Source: a virus
Lineage: Duplodnaviria > Caudoviricetes
IMG/VR virus record: IMGVR_UViG_3300044878_000142
Coordinates: 1 to 33,544 of that record
Direction: 5' to 3' (one strand)
DNA: 33,544 nucleotides
The position numbers and the translations under genes were made by a program. Of this stretch, positions 23,505 to 33,412 are shown piece after piece. Position 1 is the first letter of the stretch. Each line of letters starts with the position of its first letter. Under the pieces are notes generated by a model, which was not told the DNA's origin, ran no database searches, and worked only from the letters and a program-made list of their open reading frames with translations.

Positions 23505-23762
23505 TTAGTCATCATAGCTGTTCTCCAGCTGTCTCTTGGCTTTGGCCAGTGCAGCAATTGCACGTTCTTGAATGAAGTCAGGGACGTCTTCAAGGCCGTC
23601 AGCTAGCTCCGAGACGAACTCTTCCAGCGCTGACGACTCAGCTATGGCGTGACCTCGTGCCCATGACACAACGTTTGCTCCGTGTAGTTCACGGGGGATT
23701 TCCGGGTTGGTGCAATCTTTAAGTACCAGGGTGTCATAGCGGACGGTCTTCAAGTTACTCAT
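23505..23762 (-). CDS. Hypothetical protein (85 aa) inside the par operon
   Basis: ATG overlaps the parA 3' end by 8 nt; no recognisable motif. Confidence 0.65.
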   Translation of the reverse strand: MSNLKTVRYDTLVLKDCTNPEIPRELHGANVVSWARGHAIAESSALEEFVSELADGLEDVPDFIQERAIAALAKAKRQLENSYDD

Positions 23763-24417
23763 GGGTTGCACTCTGGTTATTCAGCAGGTGAGGGAACATC
23801 TCAGCGGCCAGCAACTGAACTTCTGCCCGTGCCTTGCCATTGCCCATTTCTACAACGCCTTTTCCTTCGAGCCATGCGTCTCTATAAATCTTGCGGTCAC
23901 GGATGATAGATCGGGCCATGGTGAAGCTTTCGAACTCGACGAGCAGGGTTTTGGCGTCAGCGACTTCATTGATCACCGGGTTTGTCGGTGCGCGAGACAG
24001 GACAGCAAACGCCTCAAGGTTGGGGTTGATTCCCTGTGCCAGCCCAATCAGTTCGTCGAGGTGGGGCAGCGTTTCAAGGTCTGCTTGGCTGGCCTGAGTA
24101 GGGATGATCATCCGATCCGCTGCCACCATCGCCGTGCGTAGTTCTTTGCTGTCGCGGCCACCTGCATCAATGATCACGAGCTGATAACGCTGGGCGAGAT
24201 CCTTCGCCGTCGCGAATACGTCTCCAGTCTTTTGAACGCAATGCACGACCGGAAGTCCTGCTTCGTTCCTCCGTGCAATGAACTTGGCGGCTGTGCCTTG
24301 TGGGTCAGCGTCCATCACTACGGTGTCCACGCCTTTAAGTGTCGCCCATACCGCGAGGTTGCCTCCGATGTTGCTTTTGCCTACACCGCCTTTCTCAGCG
24401 CCGATCAGTAGAATCAT
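23755..24417 (-). CDS. parA: Short ParA-family ATPase (type Ib)
   Basis: Deviant Walker A EKGGVGKS, A' motif DADPQG, Walker B VIIDAGG; no N-terminal HTH; GGAG RBS. Confidence 0.9.
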   Translation of the reverse strand: MILLIGAEKGGVGKSNIGGNLAVWATLKGVDTVVMDADPQGTAAKFIARRNEAGLPVVHCVQKTGDVFATAKDLAQRYQLVIIDAGGRDSKELRTAMVAADRMIIPTQASQADLETLPHLDELIGLAQGINPNLEAFAVLSRAPTNPVINEVADAKTLLVEFESFTMARSIIRDRKIYRDAWLEGKGVVEMGNGKARAEVQLLAAEMFPHLLNNQSATHE

Positions 24418-24435
24418 GATTCTCTCCGTATGACA

Positions 24436-24478
24436 TGATATGAAACGATAACGACTGAAACGATATCATATGATATCA
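24436..24478. repeat. GATATC repeat array 2 upstream of parA
   Basis: TGATATGA, CGATAACG, CGATATCA and TGATATCA, arranged as pairs at 10-bp spacing. Confidence 0.7.
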
Positions 24479-24574
24479 CTTTATGAGAATGACTTTGTGA
24501 GAGGTTGTTCGTCGGAAAAAAGGGGGGTTGAGCAAATGGAGGCGGGGAATTTTACGTCGAATTTTACGTATTGC

Positions 24575-24612
24575 AGAAACAACAAAGGCCTGCATCGCTG
24601 CAAGCCTTTGTT
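24575..24612 (-). terminator. Terminator downstream of the tRNA 3' fragment
   Basis: Minus strand AACAAAGGCTTGCA-gcga-TGCAGGCCTTTGTT followed by GTTTC; would terminate the reconstituted tRNA after integration. Confidence 0.65.
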
Positions 24613-24617
24613 TTGTA

Positions 24618-24663
24618 TGGTGCCGGCACCAGGAGTCGAACCCGGGACCTACTGATTACAAGT
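24618..24663 (-). mobile_element. attP core: 3' 46 nt of tRNA-Thr(UGU)
   Basis: Minus strand ACTTGTAATCAGTAGGTCCCGGGTTCGACTCCTGGTGCCGGCACCA has the anticodon loop (TGT), T-arm and CCA but no 5' half. It lies next to the integrase 3' end and is flanked by TTTACG repeats and an IHF consensus (24683-24695). Confidence 0.92.
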
Positions 24664-24772
24664 AAGGGAAACTTTACTTATAAATCAAGGCGTTGCGCCA
24701 TTTTATTTTACGCAGAAGGCCCGCTGCAAGCCTTGTTCGGCGTGGGGCCATGCGTTTGATTTACGTAGGGTT

Positions 24773-25921
24773 TTAGTCCGCTGAGGGGTTCACGAGCGGT
24801 ACGCTGAGGTCATAAATGTCCATCATCGCTTCGTCACGGTGACCGGACGCTTCCTGCTTGTCGGCTCGGGTGCCGACGGTATCGGTGATTCCTCGGCGCT
24901 TGAAGTCGTGCATTCCGAAGCGCTGCTCGGCGGTGATGATCTCGGCTTTGATGGCCTGGGTAATGAACCGTTGCCAAGCCGTGTCGAGGCTGGACTTTTG
25001 CAACGCGCCGCCGTGAGCAGCGGTGATGATCGGGCGTTGCTCTGCGGAGATCGGCACCGGCACGCGCTTTTTGCTCCAGATGTCGGATCGCACTTTCTTC
25101 GCGCTGTCCCATGCGGCACGCAGGCGTGGCGTCCATCGCACGATGTTGTCACGGCTGCCTTTGCGCCGGTTGGTCAGCACGCCGTCAGGGGTTTCATTTG
25201 CGTCGGTGAGCGTCACCGTCTCGATACCGCGCAAACGACAGAGGTAACTGATCTCCATCACGTACCACAGGTACGGCGCACACGCGCCAAGTTGGCCGCG
25301 TGTGAGCTGGCCCTGCTGTTGGGCGTACTTCACAAGCGCTTTCATGGCTGCGGGTTCTGGAAGGCGTCGCTGCTTGCGTTCCTTCGGCGCCTCGATTCCC
25401 TGCGCAGGGTTCGTCTCGACGAAGCCACGGTTTTTGCCCCATTGCATCGTTCGGCGCAGGTAGCGGAGTGCGTGTGCGGCCTTTGACGGCGTTCCTGCTT
25501 CGGCGATCCGGTCGATCACGCGCTGAACCAATGGCGCATTGAACTTGCGAACGGCCAGCTCACCGAGCGGCTTTTTGAGCTTGGTCGGAAAGGTCAGCAG
25601 GACGTCGCGGGAGTATTCGTAGTCAGCCTGGGTCTTTGGTTTCAGGCTTTTGAACCGATCGCTTTTGTGGAACTGCTCGCACAGGTAACGCAGGCAGTCG
25701 CGGTCAACCCCTGAACGTTCTTCCATCAGTCGGTGAAGCTCGGACAGGGTCGTAGTCGGTCCGGCCAGATTCGTCCGGCGTTGATTACCACCCTCGTCGA
25801 AAAACAACGTGTACCAGACACCGGCTCCGCGCTGGTCGAAGTAAACGGCTGCCGGTAAGGCAGCCTGATCGATGTGCGCCGGAATGTTCGGGTTGTGCTT
25901 GCGCTTTCTACCGCGTCTCAT
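24773..25921 (-). CDS. int: Tyrosine integrase (phiCTX-like)
   Basis: Catalytic motifs CRLR, RRKGS, HDFKRRG, SGH and IYD; adjacent to attP; ATG 25921 coupled to the upstream gene's stop. Confidence 0.93.
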   Translation of the reverse strand: MRRGRKRKHNPNIPAHIDQAALPAAVYFDQRGAGVWYTLFFDEGGNQRRTNLAGPTTTLSELHRLMEERSGVDRDCLRYLCEQFHKSDRFKSLKPKTQADYEYSRDVLLTFPTKLKKPLGELAVRKFNAPLVQRVIDRIAEAGTPSKAAHALRYLRRTMQWGKNRGFVETNPAQGIEAPKERKQRRLPEPAAMKALVKYAQQQGQLTRGQLGACAPYLWYVMEISYLCRLRGIETVTLTDANETPDGVLTNRRKGSRDNIVRWTPRLRAAWDSAKKVRSDIWSKKRVPVPISAEQRPIITAAHGGALQKSSLDTAWQRFITQAIKAEIITAEQRFGMHDFKRRGITDTVGTRADKQEASGHRDEAMMDIYDLSVPLVNPSAD

Positions 25922-26130
25922 CAGATGATTTCCGGGCTGTAGCTGTCCTGAGTCGGTGGAGTATAGCCACCGGCCTGATTGATCAGATCCGTGGTAGTCC
26001 ACGGGCCGTTCCGGCCCATGAACACCCGAATACCTTGTTCCTTGAGCGTGCGCTCGATGTCAGACCGGCGCTGATAGCCGGTGACTTGTTTCAGATCGTC
26101 GAAGCTGAGAATCCCTGAGACGTTGCTCAT
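25921..26130 (-). CDS. Putative excisionase/recombination directionality factor (DUF4224-like)
   Basis: LSFDDLKQVTGYQRRSDIERTLKEQGIRVF...GP; small winged-helix-like protein directly upstream of int. Confidence 0.75.
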   Translation of the reverse strand: MSNVSGILSFDDLKQVTGYQRRSDIERTLKEQGIRVFMGRNGPWTTTDLINQAGGYTPPTQDSYSPEII

Positions 26131-30799: not shown

Positions 30800-31048
30800 T
30801 CAGCTCACCGCAAGCTCTAGCTGTTGCTCATCCGGTGGCGCCTGTTTTCTCTGGCTGGTCGGTATGAACACGCGAGGGTTCGGGTTTGCGCTTGGCGACA
30901 AGGTGCGGGCCACTTCGGTGATGCTCACGAAGGTGTAACCGCATTTCAGGTTTGAACACTGCATGTAGCTCTCCTTGCAGGTCGGCGACATATACCGGCT
31001 GGTGCGTGTATGAGCTGTGCTTGTGCAGTGGGGGCATTGCATCGCCAT
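30800..31048 (-). CDS. ogr: Ogr/Delta-family late gene activator
   Basis: CPHC...RTSRYMS...ESYMQCSNLKCGYTF...SPSANPNP; GAGG RBS before ATG 31048. Confidence 0.92.
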   Translation of the reverse strand: MAMQCPHCTSTAHTRTSRYMSPTCKESYMQCSNLKCGYTFVSITEVARTLSPSANPNPRVFIPTSQRKQAPPDEQQLELAVS

Positions 31049-31064
31049 GGGCAAACCTCGCGCG

Positions 31065-31559
31065 TTAACGGCAGAAGACGACGTAAGTGAGTTCGTTCAT
31101 TTGCGTGACCTTCTGGCAGATCGCTAAGCGGATCTCCTCCAGGCGCTCGCGTTCCTTTGCGTCCACCTCGCCATCGCGGGTGGCCTCGCGCCATTCACGA
31201 GCCAGTCGACCAACTTCATCGACCAGTGCCATGTAAACGGTTTGGATTTCTTCGTGGTCGACGGTGGTGGGGCAAGGCAGAGTGATAAACACGCCGCCAG
31301 ACTCTGCCGCGACCGCTTCAGCGAACAGCGTGCTGTTGCTGTTGGCCTGCATTTGCATGGCGAGATGCACATCTACGGACTGCCCTTTGCGCTCATAGAT
31401 GCGGTTCTCCAAGCCATCTTTGGAGAGGCTCACGGATGCTGCCATCGCTGACCAACCGCCATTGACCGAGCGGCACATCGACTGATAGCTCGCACGGATC
31501 CTGTCCACAGGATTCTCTGTGGTTCGGTGGTGTGCGGTTTGCGGTTTGGTGTCTACCAT
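31065..31559 (-). CDS. CII-like (YmfL-type) phage regulatory protein
   Basis: GGWSAMAA...LENRIYERKGQ...FAEAVAAESGGVFITLP...DGEVDAKERERL; second gene of the early operon. Confidence 0.75.
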   Translation of the reverse strand: MVDTKPQTAHHRTTENPVDRIRASYQSMCRSVNGGWSAMAASVSLSKDGLENRIYERKGQSVDVHLAMQMQANSNSTLFAEAVAAESGGVFITLPCPTTVDHEEIQTVYMALVDEVGRLAREWREATRDGEVDAKERERLEEIRLAICQKVTQMNELTYVVFCR

Positions 31560-31563
31560 TGGA

Positions 31564-31752
31564 TTAGGCCTCGCCCGCTGCTTTCATTGCCTGAAGGCCT
31601 CTGAGATAGATCAAGCGAGCGAGGCTGCTTTCAGATCGGTTCTGCTGCTGTGCCATGTCGCCAAGACCAGCCTTTTCGTCGGCTGTCAGCCTCATCGCAA
31701 CGGGCTTATCGGACATCACCCCATTGGGGGCTCGGCTTCGTGGTGTGGTCAT
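31564..31752 (-). CDS. Small Cro/Cox-position regulator, ribbon-helix-helix-like (62 aa)
   Basis: First early gene, divergent from the repressor; KPVAMRLTADEK...AQQQNRSESSLARLIY. Confidence 0.72.
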   Translation of the reverse strand: MTTPRSRAPNGVMSDKPVAMRLTADEKAGLGDMAQQQNRSESSLARLIYLRGLQAMKAAGEA

Positions 31753-31776: not shown

Positions 31777-31855
31777 TTGTGTAAATCTGCAATACACAAC
31801 TGAATTATTCGCAGGAATCTGCAATATGTCAAACGATGTTTGCGAAAAACTGCAA
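31777..31855. promoter_or_regulatory. Three operator-like repeats of the lysis-lysogeny switch
   Basis: TTGTGTAAATCTGCAATA (31777), TCGCAGGAATCTGCAATA (31809) and TTGCGAAAAACTGCAATA (31840). Confidence 0.72.
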
Positions 31856-32269
31856 TACAACGATCGGTTGTCGCAGGAACGCGTTCGTCTTGGCCTCACT
31901 CAAACGGAGATGGCCAAGCGCGGTGGCGTTGCTTTTCGTACTTACTGTGATTACGAGGCGGGCAAGACTGAGCCGAAGCTCGGTTTCCTTGAGGCGGTAG
32001 GGCGCCAGGGTGCCGATGTGCTGTATATCGTCACCGGCGAGCTGTCCGGTGGGCACTTGGCCCCGGACGAGATGCTTGTTCTTGGTGGATACCGAGAACT
32101 CGACTCGAAAGGCCGCTCGGGCGTTCTTGGGATGATCGCCGGATACAACGCTCCAGAAGCACAACCCACGCAGAAGTTCAGCATGGGCGACGTAGCGCAG
32201 ATCATCAGCGGCGGGGCCGTGAATCAGACCGGTGCACGTATCAGCACTGGCAAGAGGACGAAAGGCTAG
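31826..32269 (+). CDS. Immunity repressor, XRE-family HTH with C-terminal beta-type motif
   Basis: RLSQERVRLGLTQTEMAKRGGVAFRTYCDYEAGKTEP...GADVLYIVTG; divergent from the early operon; no S24 peptidase domain. Confidence 0.88.
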   Translation: MSNDVCEKLQYNDRLSQERVRLGLTQTEMAKRGGVAFRTYCDYEAGKTEPKLGFLEAVGRQGADVLYIVTGELSGGHLAPDEMLVLGGYRELDSKGRSGVLGMIAGYNAPEAQPTQKFSMGDVAQIISGGAVNQTGARISTGKRTKG

Positions 32270-32333
32270 GAATGTTTAGCCAGCCGCCACGTATAATGGC
32301 GGAAAGCCATTATGGATGTGGGTGCAGTAGATC

Positions 32334-32975
32334 ATGGGGGAGAGTTACAAAGTTGGGGATGTTGCCCAGCTCATTACCGGCGGTACGGTCAATGAGGGCA
32401 GCAACCCGCAGTTGAGCAATGTTTTCAATCTGTCATTCGGTGCAAATGCAGATCGAGCGATCACTGATCTGCAACGAAAGGCGATCGCCTATCGAGTGGG
32501 AGAGGTGTTGAGCGTTACCGGGCTCGAACGAATGGACGTTTACAAAGTGATTCTTACAGACTTTGGCGTCGACAAACTCGGCGAATTGCCGCGCGACAGT
32601 TTCCACGAGGTAATGGCGTTGCTGGATCGCTGGGTCAAGGATCCGCTCAACGTGCCTCTGTCTTCATCCCTTTCGCATCCATACGCGCTCATCGGCGATC
32701 CAGGCTCAACACGTGAGCCATCGCCGCCATCTGACGGCGCTATGAGTCGCAACACCACCATCGTTATCTCGAACCGTCATCTTTTCAGCTCGATCGGCGT
32801 TGCTGGTGCGTTGTTCTGCGGTGTATGGCTGGCCTTTGGCGGGCCTCAAGGCCCATCGGTGTGTCAGTTTGATGGCCGGGCGTTTTCCATAGGGAGCGTA
32901 TTGAAGATGGAAGGGATCAAACGCGAGTGTCAGCGCACAACAGACGACGGCCCCGAGTGGGCCGACCCCACATAA
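32334..32975 (+). CDS. Single-pass membrane protein: repressor-matching N-terminal motif, ORF6C-like domain, TM helix, small Cys-paired exported domain
   Basis: GDVAQLITGGTVN; ITDLQRKAI...VYKVILTDFGVDKLGELPRDSFHEVMALLDRW; Ser/Pro linker; TM LFSSIGVAGALFCGVWLAF; CQFDGRAFSIGSVLKMEGIKRECQ. Confidence 0.75.
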   Translation: MGESYKVGDVAQLITGGTVNEGSNPQLSNVFNLSFGANADRAITDLQRKAIAYRVGEVLSVTGLERMDVYKVILTDFGVDKLGELPRDSFHEVMALLDRWVKDPLNVPLSSSLSHPYALIGDPGSTREPSPPSDGAMSRNTTIVISNRHLFSSIGVAGALFCGVWLAFGGPQGPSVCQFDGRAFSIGSVLKMEGIKRECQRTTDDGPEWADPT

Positions 32976-33010: not shown

Positions 33011-33412
33011 GTGAAAAAAATCGGCCTCACCCTGCTGCTGCTCGCGTCGATCCAGACGGCGCATGCAGAACCTGTCCCGGCGAGCATCACCAAACAACTC
33101 AAGCCGCTTGATATCAAAAGTGTCGAGTTAAACAGCAACGTGTTGCGCGTTGACATGGACCGCCCGCGCGTTACCGAGGACATCTATGCCACGGTGATCA
33201 ACAACGTGTGCACGAGTCTGATCCTTGAGCCTGGGTCGTGGGGCAAGACTGATTTCCAGCGGATCGAAGTCGTGAACTCATTCGGCGCGCAAGGCCGTGT
33301 GTTCAGTGGCGGCGCGGCAGAGTGCAAGGCGATCGGCAAGCTGACCATGGATCAGGTCAATCAAGAGTTCTTGCCGGAACACACCAGTCTCTGGAGCGCG
33401 CCTGGCAATTAA
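33011..33412 (+). CDS. Secreted/periplasmic protein of unknown function
   Basis: Sec signal peptide MKKIGLTLLLLASIQTAHA|EP; two cysteines; AGGA RBS; stop is 2 nt from the convergent gene D stop. Confidence 0.8.
   Translation: MKKIGLTLLLLASIQTAHAEPVPASITKQLKPLDIKSVELNSNVLRVDMDRPRVTEDIYATVINNVCTSLILEPGSWGKTDFQRIEVVNSFGAQGRVFSGGAAECKAIGKLTMDQVNQEFLPEHTSLWSAPGN

What the first reader, a model, noticed from the sequence alone, without database searches (positions are those of the whole stretch)
32177..32396. Repressor C-terminus and the next gene's N-terminus share a homotypic, amyloid-like motif
Seen: the repressor ends in FSM-GDVAQIISGGAVN-Q (32177-32227) and the next protein begins YKV-GDVAQLITGGTVN-E (32346-32396). 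Ten of 13 core residues are identical, yet 7 of those 10 codons differ synonymously. This points to selection on the peptide rather than a recent DNA duplication. Known: a short G/Q/N/V/I-rich motif shared by the C-terminus of one protein and the N-terminus of a neighbouring gene's protein is the architecture of amyloid signalling pairs (fungal HET-s/NWD2, RHIM-like motifs, bacterial BASS motifs next to NLRs). Inference: the membrane protein could capture or co-polymerise the repressor through this motif and so switch immunity on or off. The repressor has no RecA-cleavable peptidase domain, so any induction must use another route. I know of no description of such a pair in a phage lysis-lysogeny switch.
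Basis: partly seen in the sequence, partly recalled or inferred. Interest (0 to 1): 0.9.

Follow-up and report, generated by a model that had tools for sequence, protein, structure and literature searches.

The report
Matched peptide links repressor and partner
A temperate phage's repressor ends in the same short peptide that begins the membrane protein encoded next to it, and the two peptides change together across many phages, so they likely bind each other and would tie the phage's dormant-or-lytic switch to a membrane partner.

Summary
In detail: 10 of 13 residues identical, 7 of 10 codons synonymous, 0 of 1000 shuffles above 8. The pair sits in the lysis-lysogeny switch of a P2-like phage. 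In 113 distinct repressor-partner pairs the repressor tail resembles its own partner's head more than other heads (28 lineages, z 6.9), position by position, without DNA homogenisation. The partner is a bitopic membrane protein with a three-helix bundle resembling ORF6C/Bro-N antirepressor and Flk domains; two repressors carry that bundle as an insertion. Best reading: the head mimics the repressor's self-association tail and captures it at the membrane, probably weakening repression (0.45; direct binding of any kind about 0.8). A true amyloid/prion switch is possible (0.2) but untested; it is not a BASS member (no NLR, no death effector). Against: about 30 repressors keep a tail with no partner nearby, and no complex model could be run. 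This scan noted the same pairing four times on other DNA; nine literature searches listed no description.

The parts
31826..32269 (+). XRE/HTH_3 repressor, 147 aa: HTH (res 17-57), two C-terminal helices (80-107), low-confidence tail (113-147); probable immunity repressor
   Evidence: Pfam HTH_3 E 8.3e-08; model; homologues annotated repressor in KS5, Carl1, Ps59
32177..32227 (+). Repressor tail motif, res 118-134, followed by a short basic end
   Evidence: 14 synonymous against 2 non-synonymous variants in 7 close relatives
32334..32975 (+). Partner: bitopic membrane protein, 213 aa, N-terminus predicted cytoplasmic
   Evidence: phrog_6521; positive-inside pattern in 78 of 83 homologues with a TM segment, of 90 examined
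32346..32396 (+). Partner head motif, res 5-21, matching the repressor tail
   Evidence: 9 synonymous against 2 non-synonymous variants; pLDDT under 50 in the monomer model
32454..32648 (+). Three-helix bundle, res 41-105, ORF6C/Flk-like
   Evidence: pLDDT 95+; weak ORF6C hits; Flk hits in enterobacterial homologues; family profile hits a Bro-N protein C-terminus
32781..32837 (+). Predicted transmembrane segment, res 150-168
   Evidence: Kyte-Doolittle mean 1.94
32856..32963 (+). Small beta domain with invariant Cys pair (DUF1496-like), predicted periplasmic
   Evidence: Pfam DUF1496 E 0.00097, just under cut-off; C177 and C199 invariant in 23 rows; model
31777..31859 (.). Three operator-like 20-nt repeats, spacing 32 and 31
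   Evidence: 3 of 4 window matches of the 8-nt core lie here, 0.62 expected; related palindrome in 5 of 5 more distant loci with the same recognition helix
31804..31832 (-). Sigma-70-type promoter-like site (11 of 12), overlapping the repeats, facing the early operon
   Evidence: one site found; 0.8 expected in shuffles at the looser threshold
31564..31740 (-). Arc-like repressor gene, first gene of the divergent operon (followed by CII-like 31065-31559 and Ogr 30800-31054)
   Evidence: phrog_3431 E 3.3e-22, phrog_101, phrog_603; Pfam

Best explanation
The repressor tail and the partner head are a co-varying peptide pair that likely stack on each other as in-register beta strands, so that the membrane protein would capture the repressor and weaken repression. 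Shown: the match, its position-by-position co-variation across phage lineages, protein-level selection, the switch context. Inferred: the tail normally lets repressor dimers self-associate across the three tandem operators; the partner's head mimics it, forms a finite complex at the inner membrane and brings an antirepressor-like three-helix bundle to the repressor; the small periplasmic Cys domain may gate this in response to an envelope cue, giving a RecA-independent way to tune immunity or induction.
For: Cognate tail-head scores exceed non-cognate at 12, 19 and 24 clusters of 113 pairs (median p 0.002, the floor of 500 permutations; without the enterobacterial type max p 0.002-0.032) and in 28 lineage representatives (41.4 against 30.3, z 6.9; shuffled heads z 0.0-0.7; tail against a downstream partner region z 1.3). 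The signal is at offset 0 only (summed z 10.0; other offsets -2.3 to 1.2). Identical codons 98 of 237 against 88 expected. Both motifs are low-confidence coil as monomers, with alternating hydrophobic positions and Gly turns. 0 of 14 tail-less repressors with 1.5 kb or more of flank have a partner (sorted by eye); two more in named phages agree. Two fusion proteins with different HTHs carry the partner's bundle between the repressor helices and the tail (iE 1e-16, 5e-18). One host genome holds two pairs of different variants, each matched. Orphan tails and three tandem operators fit a self-association role.
Against: No binding, structure of the complex or phenotype is in hand. Cognate matching is statistical, not exclusive: the cognate head ranks first for 6 of 28 and in the top three for 12 of 28; a control (HTH against head) reached z 2.0. 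About 30 repressors keep a tail with no partner in the flanks (20 above threshold, 11 more by eye), none found in three records 92-100% complete or two whole genomes, and 3 loci have a partner without head. The bundle's link to antirepressors is weak (Pfam ORF6C best E 0.015 in 2 of 9; Foldseek E 7e-3; VIA Z 7.9 is in the range of common helical bundles), and short partners lack the bundle. Fusions show that the bundle is tolerated inside a repressor, which does not favour an inhibitory role.
Confidence: 0.45

Rival explanations
1. The motifs are amyloid signalling motifs: clustered partner heads would template a self-propagating cross-beta polymer of repressor tails, a prion-like switch of lysogeny.
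For: C-terminal plus N-terminal motif in adjacent collinear genes is the layout of BASS pairs. Composition V 16, G 16, N 8, Q 8, I 6, P 2, L 2, K 4 per cent follows the bias reported for BASS. In-register co-variation. Some heads appear by eye to carry two motif copies (P0098, P0159, P0160). Bab/Agp shows such signalling can work from an E. coli prophage.
Against: No NLR-like oligomeriser or death effector; no RHIM/HET-s-type family hit; the matched core is about 13-17 residues against about 25 for BASS; a regex found a second copy in only 1 of 149 heads; a self-nucleating tail on an essential repressor would risk spontaneous loss of immunity (inference), and orphan tails persist.
Confidence: 0.2
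2. The two proteins bind through the motif, but the partner acts as co-repressor, anchor or stabiliser that strengthens immunity rather than weakening it.
For: The partner lies 64 bp behind the repressor stop on the same strand, so it is probably expressed in the lysogen; fusions place its bundle inside repressors.
Against: Many complete prophages lack it; the bundle's nearest leads are antirepressor-associated domains.
Confidence: 0.17
3. Both motifs bind a third factor (a protease, chaperone, or host or phage protein); the head is a decoy that titrates it away from the repressor tail.
For: Same-position similarity is also expected for a shared ligand; tails persist without partner; variants partly follow host groups.
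Against: Different matched variants occur in one genome (L187, L189) and in one host species (L006, L012); no third conserved gene was seen, and the genes inserted between or after the pair vary.
Confidence: 0.15
4. The match is a DNA-level by-product: recent duplication, gene conversion or a repeated DNA site.
For: The genes are adjacent; identical codons are slightly above expectation (41% against 37%, one pair 5 of 5).
Against: 7 of 10 codons differ in the window; the excess is about 1.3 standard deviations; both motifs show mostly synonymous variation; matching persists with other genes or a transposase in between.
Confidence: 0.03

Closest known systems
Bacterial amyloid signalling pairs BASS1-10 (Bell/NLR; 10.1101/2020.01.06.895854) and BASS11 Bab/Agp (10.1101/2024.11.07.622273)
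   Same: Short G/N/Q/V/I-rich motif at the C-terminus of one protein and the N-terminus of the next, adjacent collinear genes; Bab/Agp also lies in a prophage.
   Different: Carriers are a DNA-binding repressor and a bitopic membrane protein, not a cell-death effector and an NLR/TPR receptor; the output would be transcriptional; amyloid state untested; orphan tails are common.
SinI-SinR of Bacillus subtilis (mechanism recalled; PDB 1b0n seen only as a title)
   Same: An XRE repressor and an adjacent gene whose product mimics the repressor's C-terminal oligomerisation segment and titrates it.
   Different: SinI mimicry is helical and soluble; here the mimic is a predicted beta motif on a membrane protein with a periplasmic domain, in phage immunity regions.
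Phage antirepressors (Bro-N/ORF6C proteins; Qtip and AimX seen in search listings; 186 Tum recalled)
   Same: Control of a non-cleavable repressor by a second protein; the partner's bundle has weak similarity to ORF6C and to a Bro-N protein C-terminus.
   Different: Membrane-anchored, encoded behind the repressor on the same strand, and sharing a co-varying peptide with its target.
Flk, flagellar regulator (NCBIfam NF007987)
   Same: Enterobacterial partners match Flk residues about 22-160 at E 1.7e-19 and 3.7e-17; C-terminal membrane anchor.
   Different: Scores are 63-70 bits against a 353-bit cut-off; the window protein has no hit; phage context.

Membership tests
BASS / amyloid signalling pairs | Shared short motif at C-terminus of one and N-terminus of an adjacent collinear gene product | tested here: met
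BASS / amyloid signalling pairs | Composition enriched in Q, N, G, V, I and poor in K, P, L | tested here: met
   against the paper's statement (no formal background test)
BASS / amyloid signalling pairs | N-terminal motif carried by an NLR (NB-ARC/NACHT) or TPR receptor | tested here: not met
   213-aa bitopic protein, no such family
BASS / amyloid signalling pairs | C-terminal motif carried by a Bell/HeLo-like or other immune effector | tested here: not met
   HTH_3 repressor; PADLOC hits only in the HTH
BASS / amyloid signalling pairs | Sequence match to a described BASS1-11 or RHIM profile | tested here: inconclusive
   No RHIM-type Pfam hit; BASS logos and profiles are in figures and supplements that I could not see
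BASS / amyloid signalling pairs | Fibril formation, seeding, prion-like propagation | not testable with these tools
   needs bench work; ArchCandy not on hand
P2-like (Peduoviridae) immunity repressor | XRE HTH gene divergent from the early operon, with operators over the early promoter, in a P2-type genome | tested here: met
   same layout in RSA1, phiE52237, KS5, Carl1; repression itself not tested
RecA-cleavable CI repressors | C-terminal S24 peptidase domain | tested here: not met
ORF6C / Bro-N antirepressors | ORF6C domain at family cut-off | tested here: inconclusive
   2 of 9 members, best E 0.015; Foldseek E 7e-3; Bro-N protein hit E 2.3e-4
Flk equivalog | NF007987 score of 353 bits or more | tested here: not met
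   no hit for the window protein; 70 and 63 bits for L101 and L111

The most novel reading that the evidence does not exclude
Temperate phages of proteobacteria control their immunity repressor with an amyloid signalling motif: a periplasm-sensing membrane receptor templates the repressor's tail into a self-propagating cross-beta polymer, giving a RecA-independent, all-or-none and possibly heritable lysis-lysogeny switch, with motif variants insulating co-resident prophages.
Probability: 0.2. Interest if true: 0.93.

Novelty: new variant of a known kind. Interest (0 to 1): 0.74.

Why it matters
How prophages with non-cleavable repressors sense the cell and leave lysogeny is poorly known for most P2-like and Mu-like phages. 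A widespread module (405 partner-like clusters at 50% identity with E up to 0.001) that joins the repressor to a membrane protein by a matched peptide gives a direct, cheap test: delete or swap about 15 residues. If binding holds, it is a new way to wire envelope signals to a phage switch and a natural set of partly orthogonal peptide pairs; if amyloid, it extends amyloid signalling from cell-death immunity to transcriptional fate control.

Tried and rejected
Monomer models leave both motifs unstructured. Foldseek against PDB gave no match at E 0.001 for either model; VIA-align top hits for the bundle (Sak C-terminal part Z 7.9, rmsd 2.2, 60 aligned; NinB 7.0; Red-beta CTD 6.7) are leads only; a profile search of PDB sequences found nothing useful. 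A best-14-mer scan of each tail against its whole locus was noisy and missed most Burkholderia-type pairs, which carry a one-residue shift. A search for a distant partner of the SQIIVGGSNNVQVG-type tail in about 38-39 kb of each of two genomes found none. A class-wide search found the partner profile in 3 of 400 genomes, one being the centre genome, one a Bro-N protein and one apparently unrelated. The ESM Atlas gave Flk_N (10% of members, score 0.91) for the partner and no usable hit for the repressor C-terminal half. A look-up by sequence in earlier findings found nothing. The tail-head similarity matrix correlation (rho 0.54; tail-HTH 0.0) is not counted as evidence, since linkage explains it. 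No fusion form was found in named phages. Rejected: chance match, recent duplication, BASS membership, Flk membership.

Full report
Observation. The two stretches are as described: FSMGDVAQIISGGAVNQ at residues 118-134 of a 147-aa ORF (31826-32269) and YKVGDVAQLITGGTVNE at residues 5-21 of the next, 213-aa ORF (32334-32975). 10 of 13 core residues are identical, 7 of those 10 codons differ, and 0 of 1000 shuffles exceeded 8 identities.

Context. The window is a P2-like phage record (P2 capsid, terminase, portal, Ogr; virus record). The first ORF is an HTH_3 protein without a peptidase domain, divergent from an Arc-like, a CII-like and an Ogr gene. Three 20-nt repeats spaced 32 and 31 bases overlap an 11-of-12 sigma-70 site that faces the early genes; the 8-nt core occurs 4 times in the window, 3 of them here, against 0.62 expected; five more distant loci with the same recognition helix show a related palindrome. 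The protein is therefore probably the immunity repressor; this is inference, as are the annotations of its homologues in KS5 and Carl1.

Anatomy of the partner. The monomer model gives a low-confidence head (1-38), a confident three-helix bundle (41-105), a variable linker, and a small beta domain (175-210); hydropathy places one TM segment at about 150-168. Among the 90 top representatives examined, 83 have a TM segment, 78 of the 83 are more positive before it than after, and 68 of the 83 have the Cys-pair domain after it: head and bundle are predicted cytoplasmic. The bundle has weak links to ORF6C (2 of 9 members, best E 0.015; Foldseek E 7e-3), to the C-terminus of a Bro-N protein (E 2.3e-4), to Flk (strong only in enterobacterial members) and, by fold, to Sak and Red-beta C-terminal parts at Z 6.5-7.9, a range the tool calls common for helical bundles. 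The family is sizeable: 405 clusters at E up to 0.001; 106 of 150 listed representatives have an N-terminus that scores above the 95th percentile of shuffles against repressor tails.

Co-variation. From I extracted 186 distinct repressor loci, 124 with a partner hit. Many were retrieved with partner queries, so this ratio is not a frequency. I dropped 3 loci whose partner has lost its head, added 2 by eye (L250, L265) and removed duplicates, leaving 113 pairs. Variants are matched within a genome: GQN(I/V)(Y/F)G in both proteins of L077 and L122; NR.AGRD(Y/F) in both proteins of enterobacterial loci; VSQ in L117; a quite different form in L265. With one random pair per cluster (12, 19 or 24 clusters), cognate alignment scores were 42-43 against 28-30, median p 0.002 (floor); without the NR type 41 against 30-31, max p 0.002-0.032. 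For 28 representatives that I picked by hand (one per cluster plus visible sub-lineages; two anchors set by eye) z was 6.9; shuffled heads gave 0.0-0.7, tail against a later partner region 1.3, HTH against head 2.0; the cognate head ranked first in 6 and in the top three in 12 of 28, first for the window. Column by column the signal lies at offset 0 (summed z 10.0, others -2.3 to 1.2); the test sees only like-for-like changes and shares an anchor, so it fits in-register stacking and also a common ligand. Linkage cannot explain resemblance between two different genes.

Protein or DNA. Identical residues use identical codons in 98 of 237 cases, against 88 expected from each locus's usage and 35% in non-cognate pairs, an excess of about 1.3 standard deviations by my arithmetic. 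In 7 close relatives the tail shows 14 synonymous and 2 non-synonymous variants, the head 9 and 2, the partner's linker 60 and 42. Matching survives inserted genes and a transposase between the two.

Co-occurrence, including what goes against. Of 183 complete repressors, 123 have a partner head; 101 of these pass a shuffle-based tail threshold and the other 22 show the motif by eye; 8 were set aside for short flanks. Of the 29 below threshold without partner, by eye 14 are tail-less, 11 carry a tail (10 of the SQIIVGGSNNVQVG type) and 4 have other ends. A further 20 tails above threshold have no partner in the flanks, and 3 have a head-less partner. Searches of three records 92-100% complete found no partner; a fourth gave one marginal hit (E 0.008), a fifth is a fragment; two whole genomes had none. 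So the partner seems to need a tailed repressor, but the tail does not need the partner. This suggests the tail has a job in the repressor itself, most simply self-association over tandem operators, and that the head is a mimic.

Further links. Two proteins with different HTHs, P0134 and P0166, carry the partner's bundle between the repressor helices and the tail; each is on record from one contig, and I have no gene context for them. One Ralstonia genome holds two pairs with different, matched variants. The module extends beyond the P2-like phages seen first: Pseudomonas phage Ps59 has an NR-type tail and a membrane neighbour with the matching head but no recognisable bundle, whereas tail-less repressors in YO002_1 and KL3 have no such neighbour. 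Short partners keep head, TM and Cys domain without the bundle, so the head and the membrane anchor are the constant parts.

Mechanism. I commit to a finite in-register beta complex in which the membrane partner captures the repressor tail and weakens repression (0.45). Amyloid templating (0.2), a co-repressor or anchoring role (0.17), a shared third ligand (0.15) and a DNA by-product (0.03) are the rivals; direct binding of some kind is thus about 0.8. Binding, direction and signal are all inferred.

Comparison with print. [quoted passage not shown] Bab/Agp is a prophage-borne BASS11 pair; the word repressor does not occur in its main text (10.1101/2024.11.07.622273: passages). A 2026 review (PMC13506858: passages) showed no phage repressor case in the passages returned, and PMC12261475 has no occurrence of HTH, repressor, phage or XRE. 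PMC3091744 lists the KS5 genes as repressor and membrane protein in a table (passages). Nine searches (listings and abstract starts only) showed no description of the pairing; the library lacks most subscription papers. The SinI-SinR mimicry and 186 Tum are recalled. The layout works like an amyloid signalling pair or a SinI-type mimic, but fails BASS membership on both carrier domains.

Earlier notes of this scan report the same pairing on four other windows; they are unchecked AI notes and I count them as no support. Verdict: a real, selected, widespread repressor-partner peptide pair not found in the literature searched; new variant of a known kind; interest 0.74.

Noticed in passing
window 31826-31859: The annotated ATG lies in the -35 box of the leftward promoter and the third repeat lies inside the ORF; homologues have an ATG where the window has CTG at 31850, so the true start may be either.
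   Followed up: no
P0134, P0166: Repressors with the partner's three-helix bundle inserted before the tail; the order differs from what a simple deletion between the two motifs would give.
   Followed up: partly
L069, L145 and about 10 similar loci: A distinct conserved tail type (SQIIVGGSNNVQVG) with no partner found; neighbours are variable moron-like genes.
   Followed up: partly
L118, L120, L217: Partner reduced to a remnant with the Cys domain but no head, while the repressor tail is kept (altered end in L120).
   Followed up: no
L006:1675-2895; L007:606-1840: Insertion sequences sit between repressor and partner in RSA1 and just upstream of the repressor in RsoM1USA; both could disturb expression of the pair.
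   Followed up: no
window 33011-33412: Small protein with a signal-peptide-like start (phrog_3807) in the variable slot between the partner and tail gene D.
   Followed up: no
window 23755-26002: A ParA-like ATPase lies next to the integrase in this P2-like genome.
   Followed up: no
L101, L111, L155-L185: Enterobacterial phage partners are Flk-like, which hints that chromosomal Flk and these phage proteins share an origin.
   Followed up: partly
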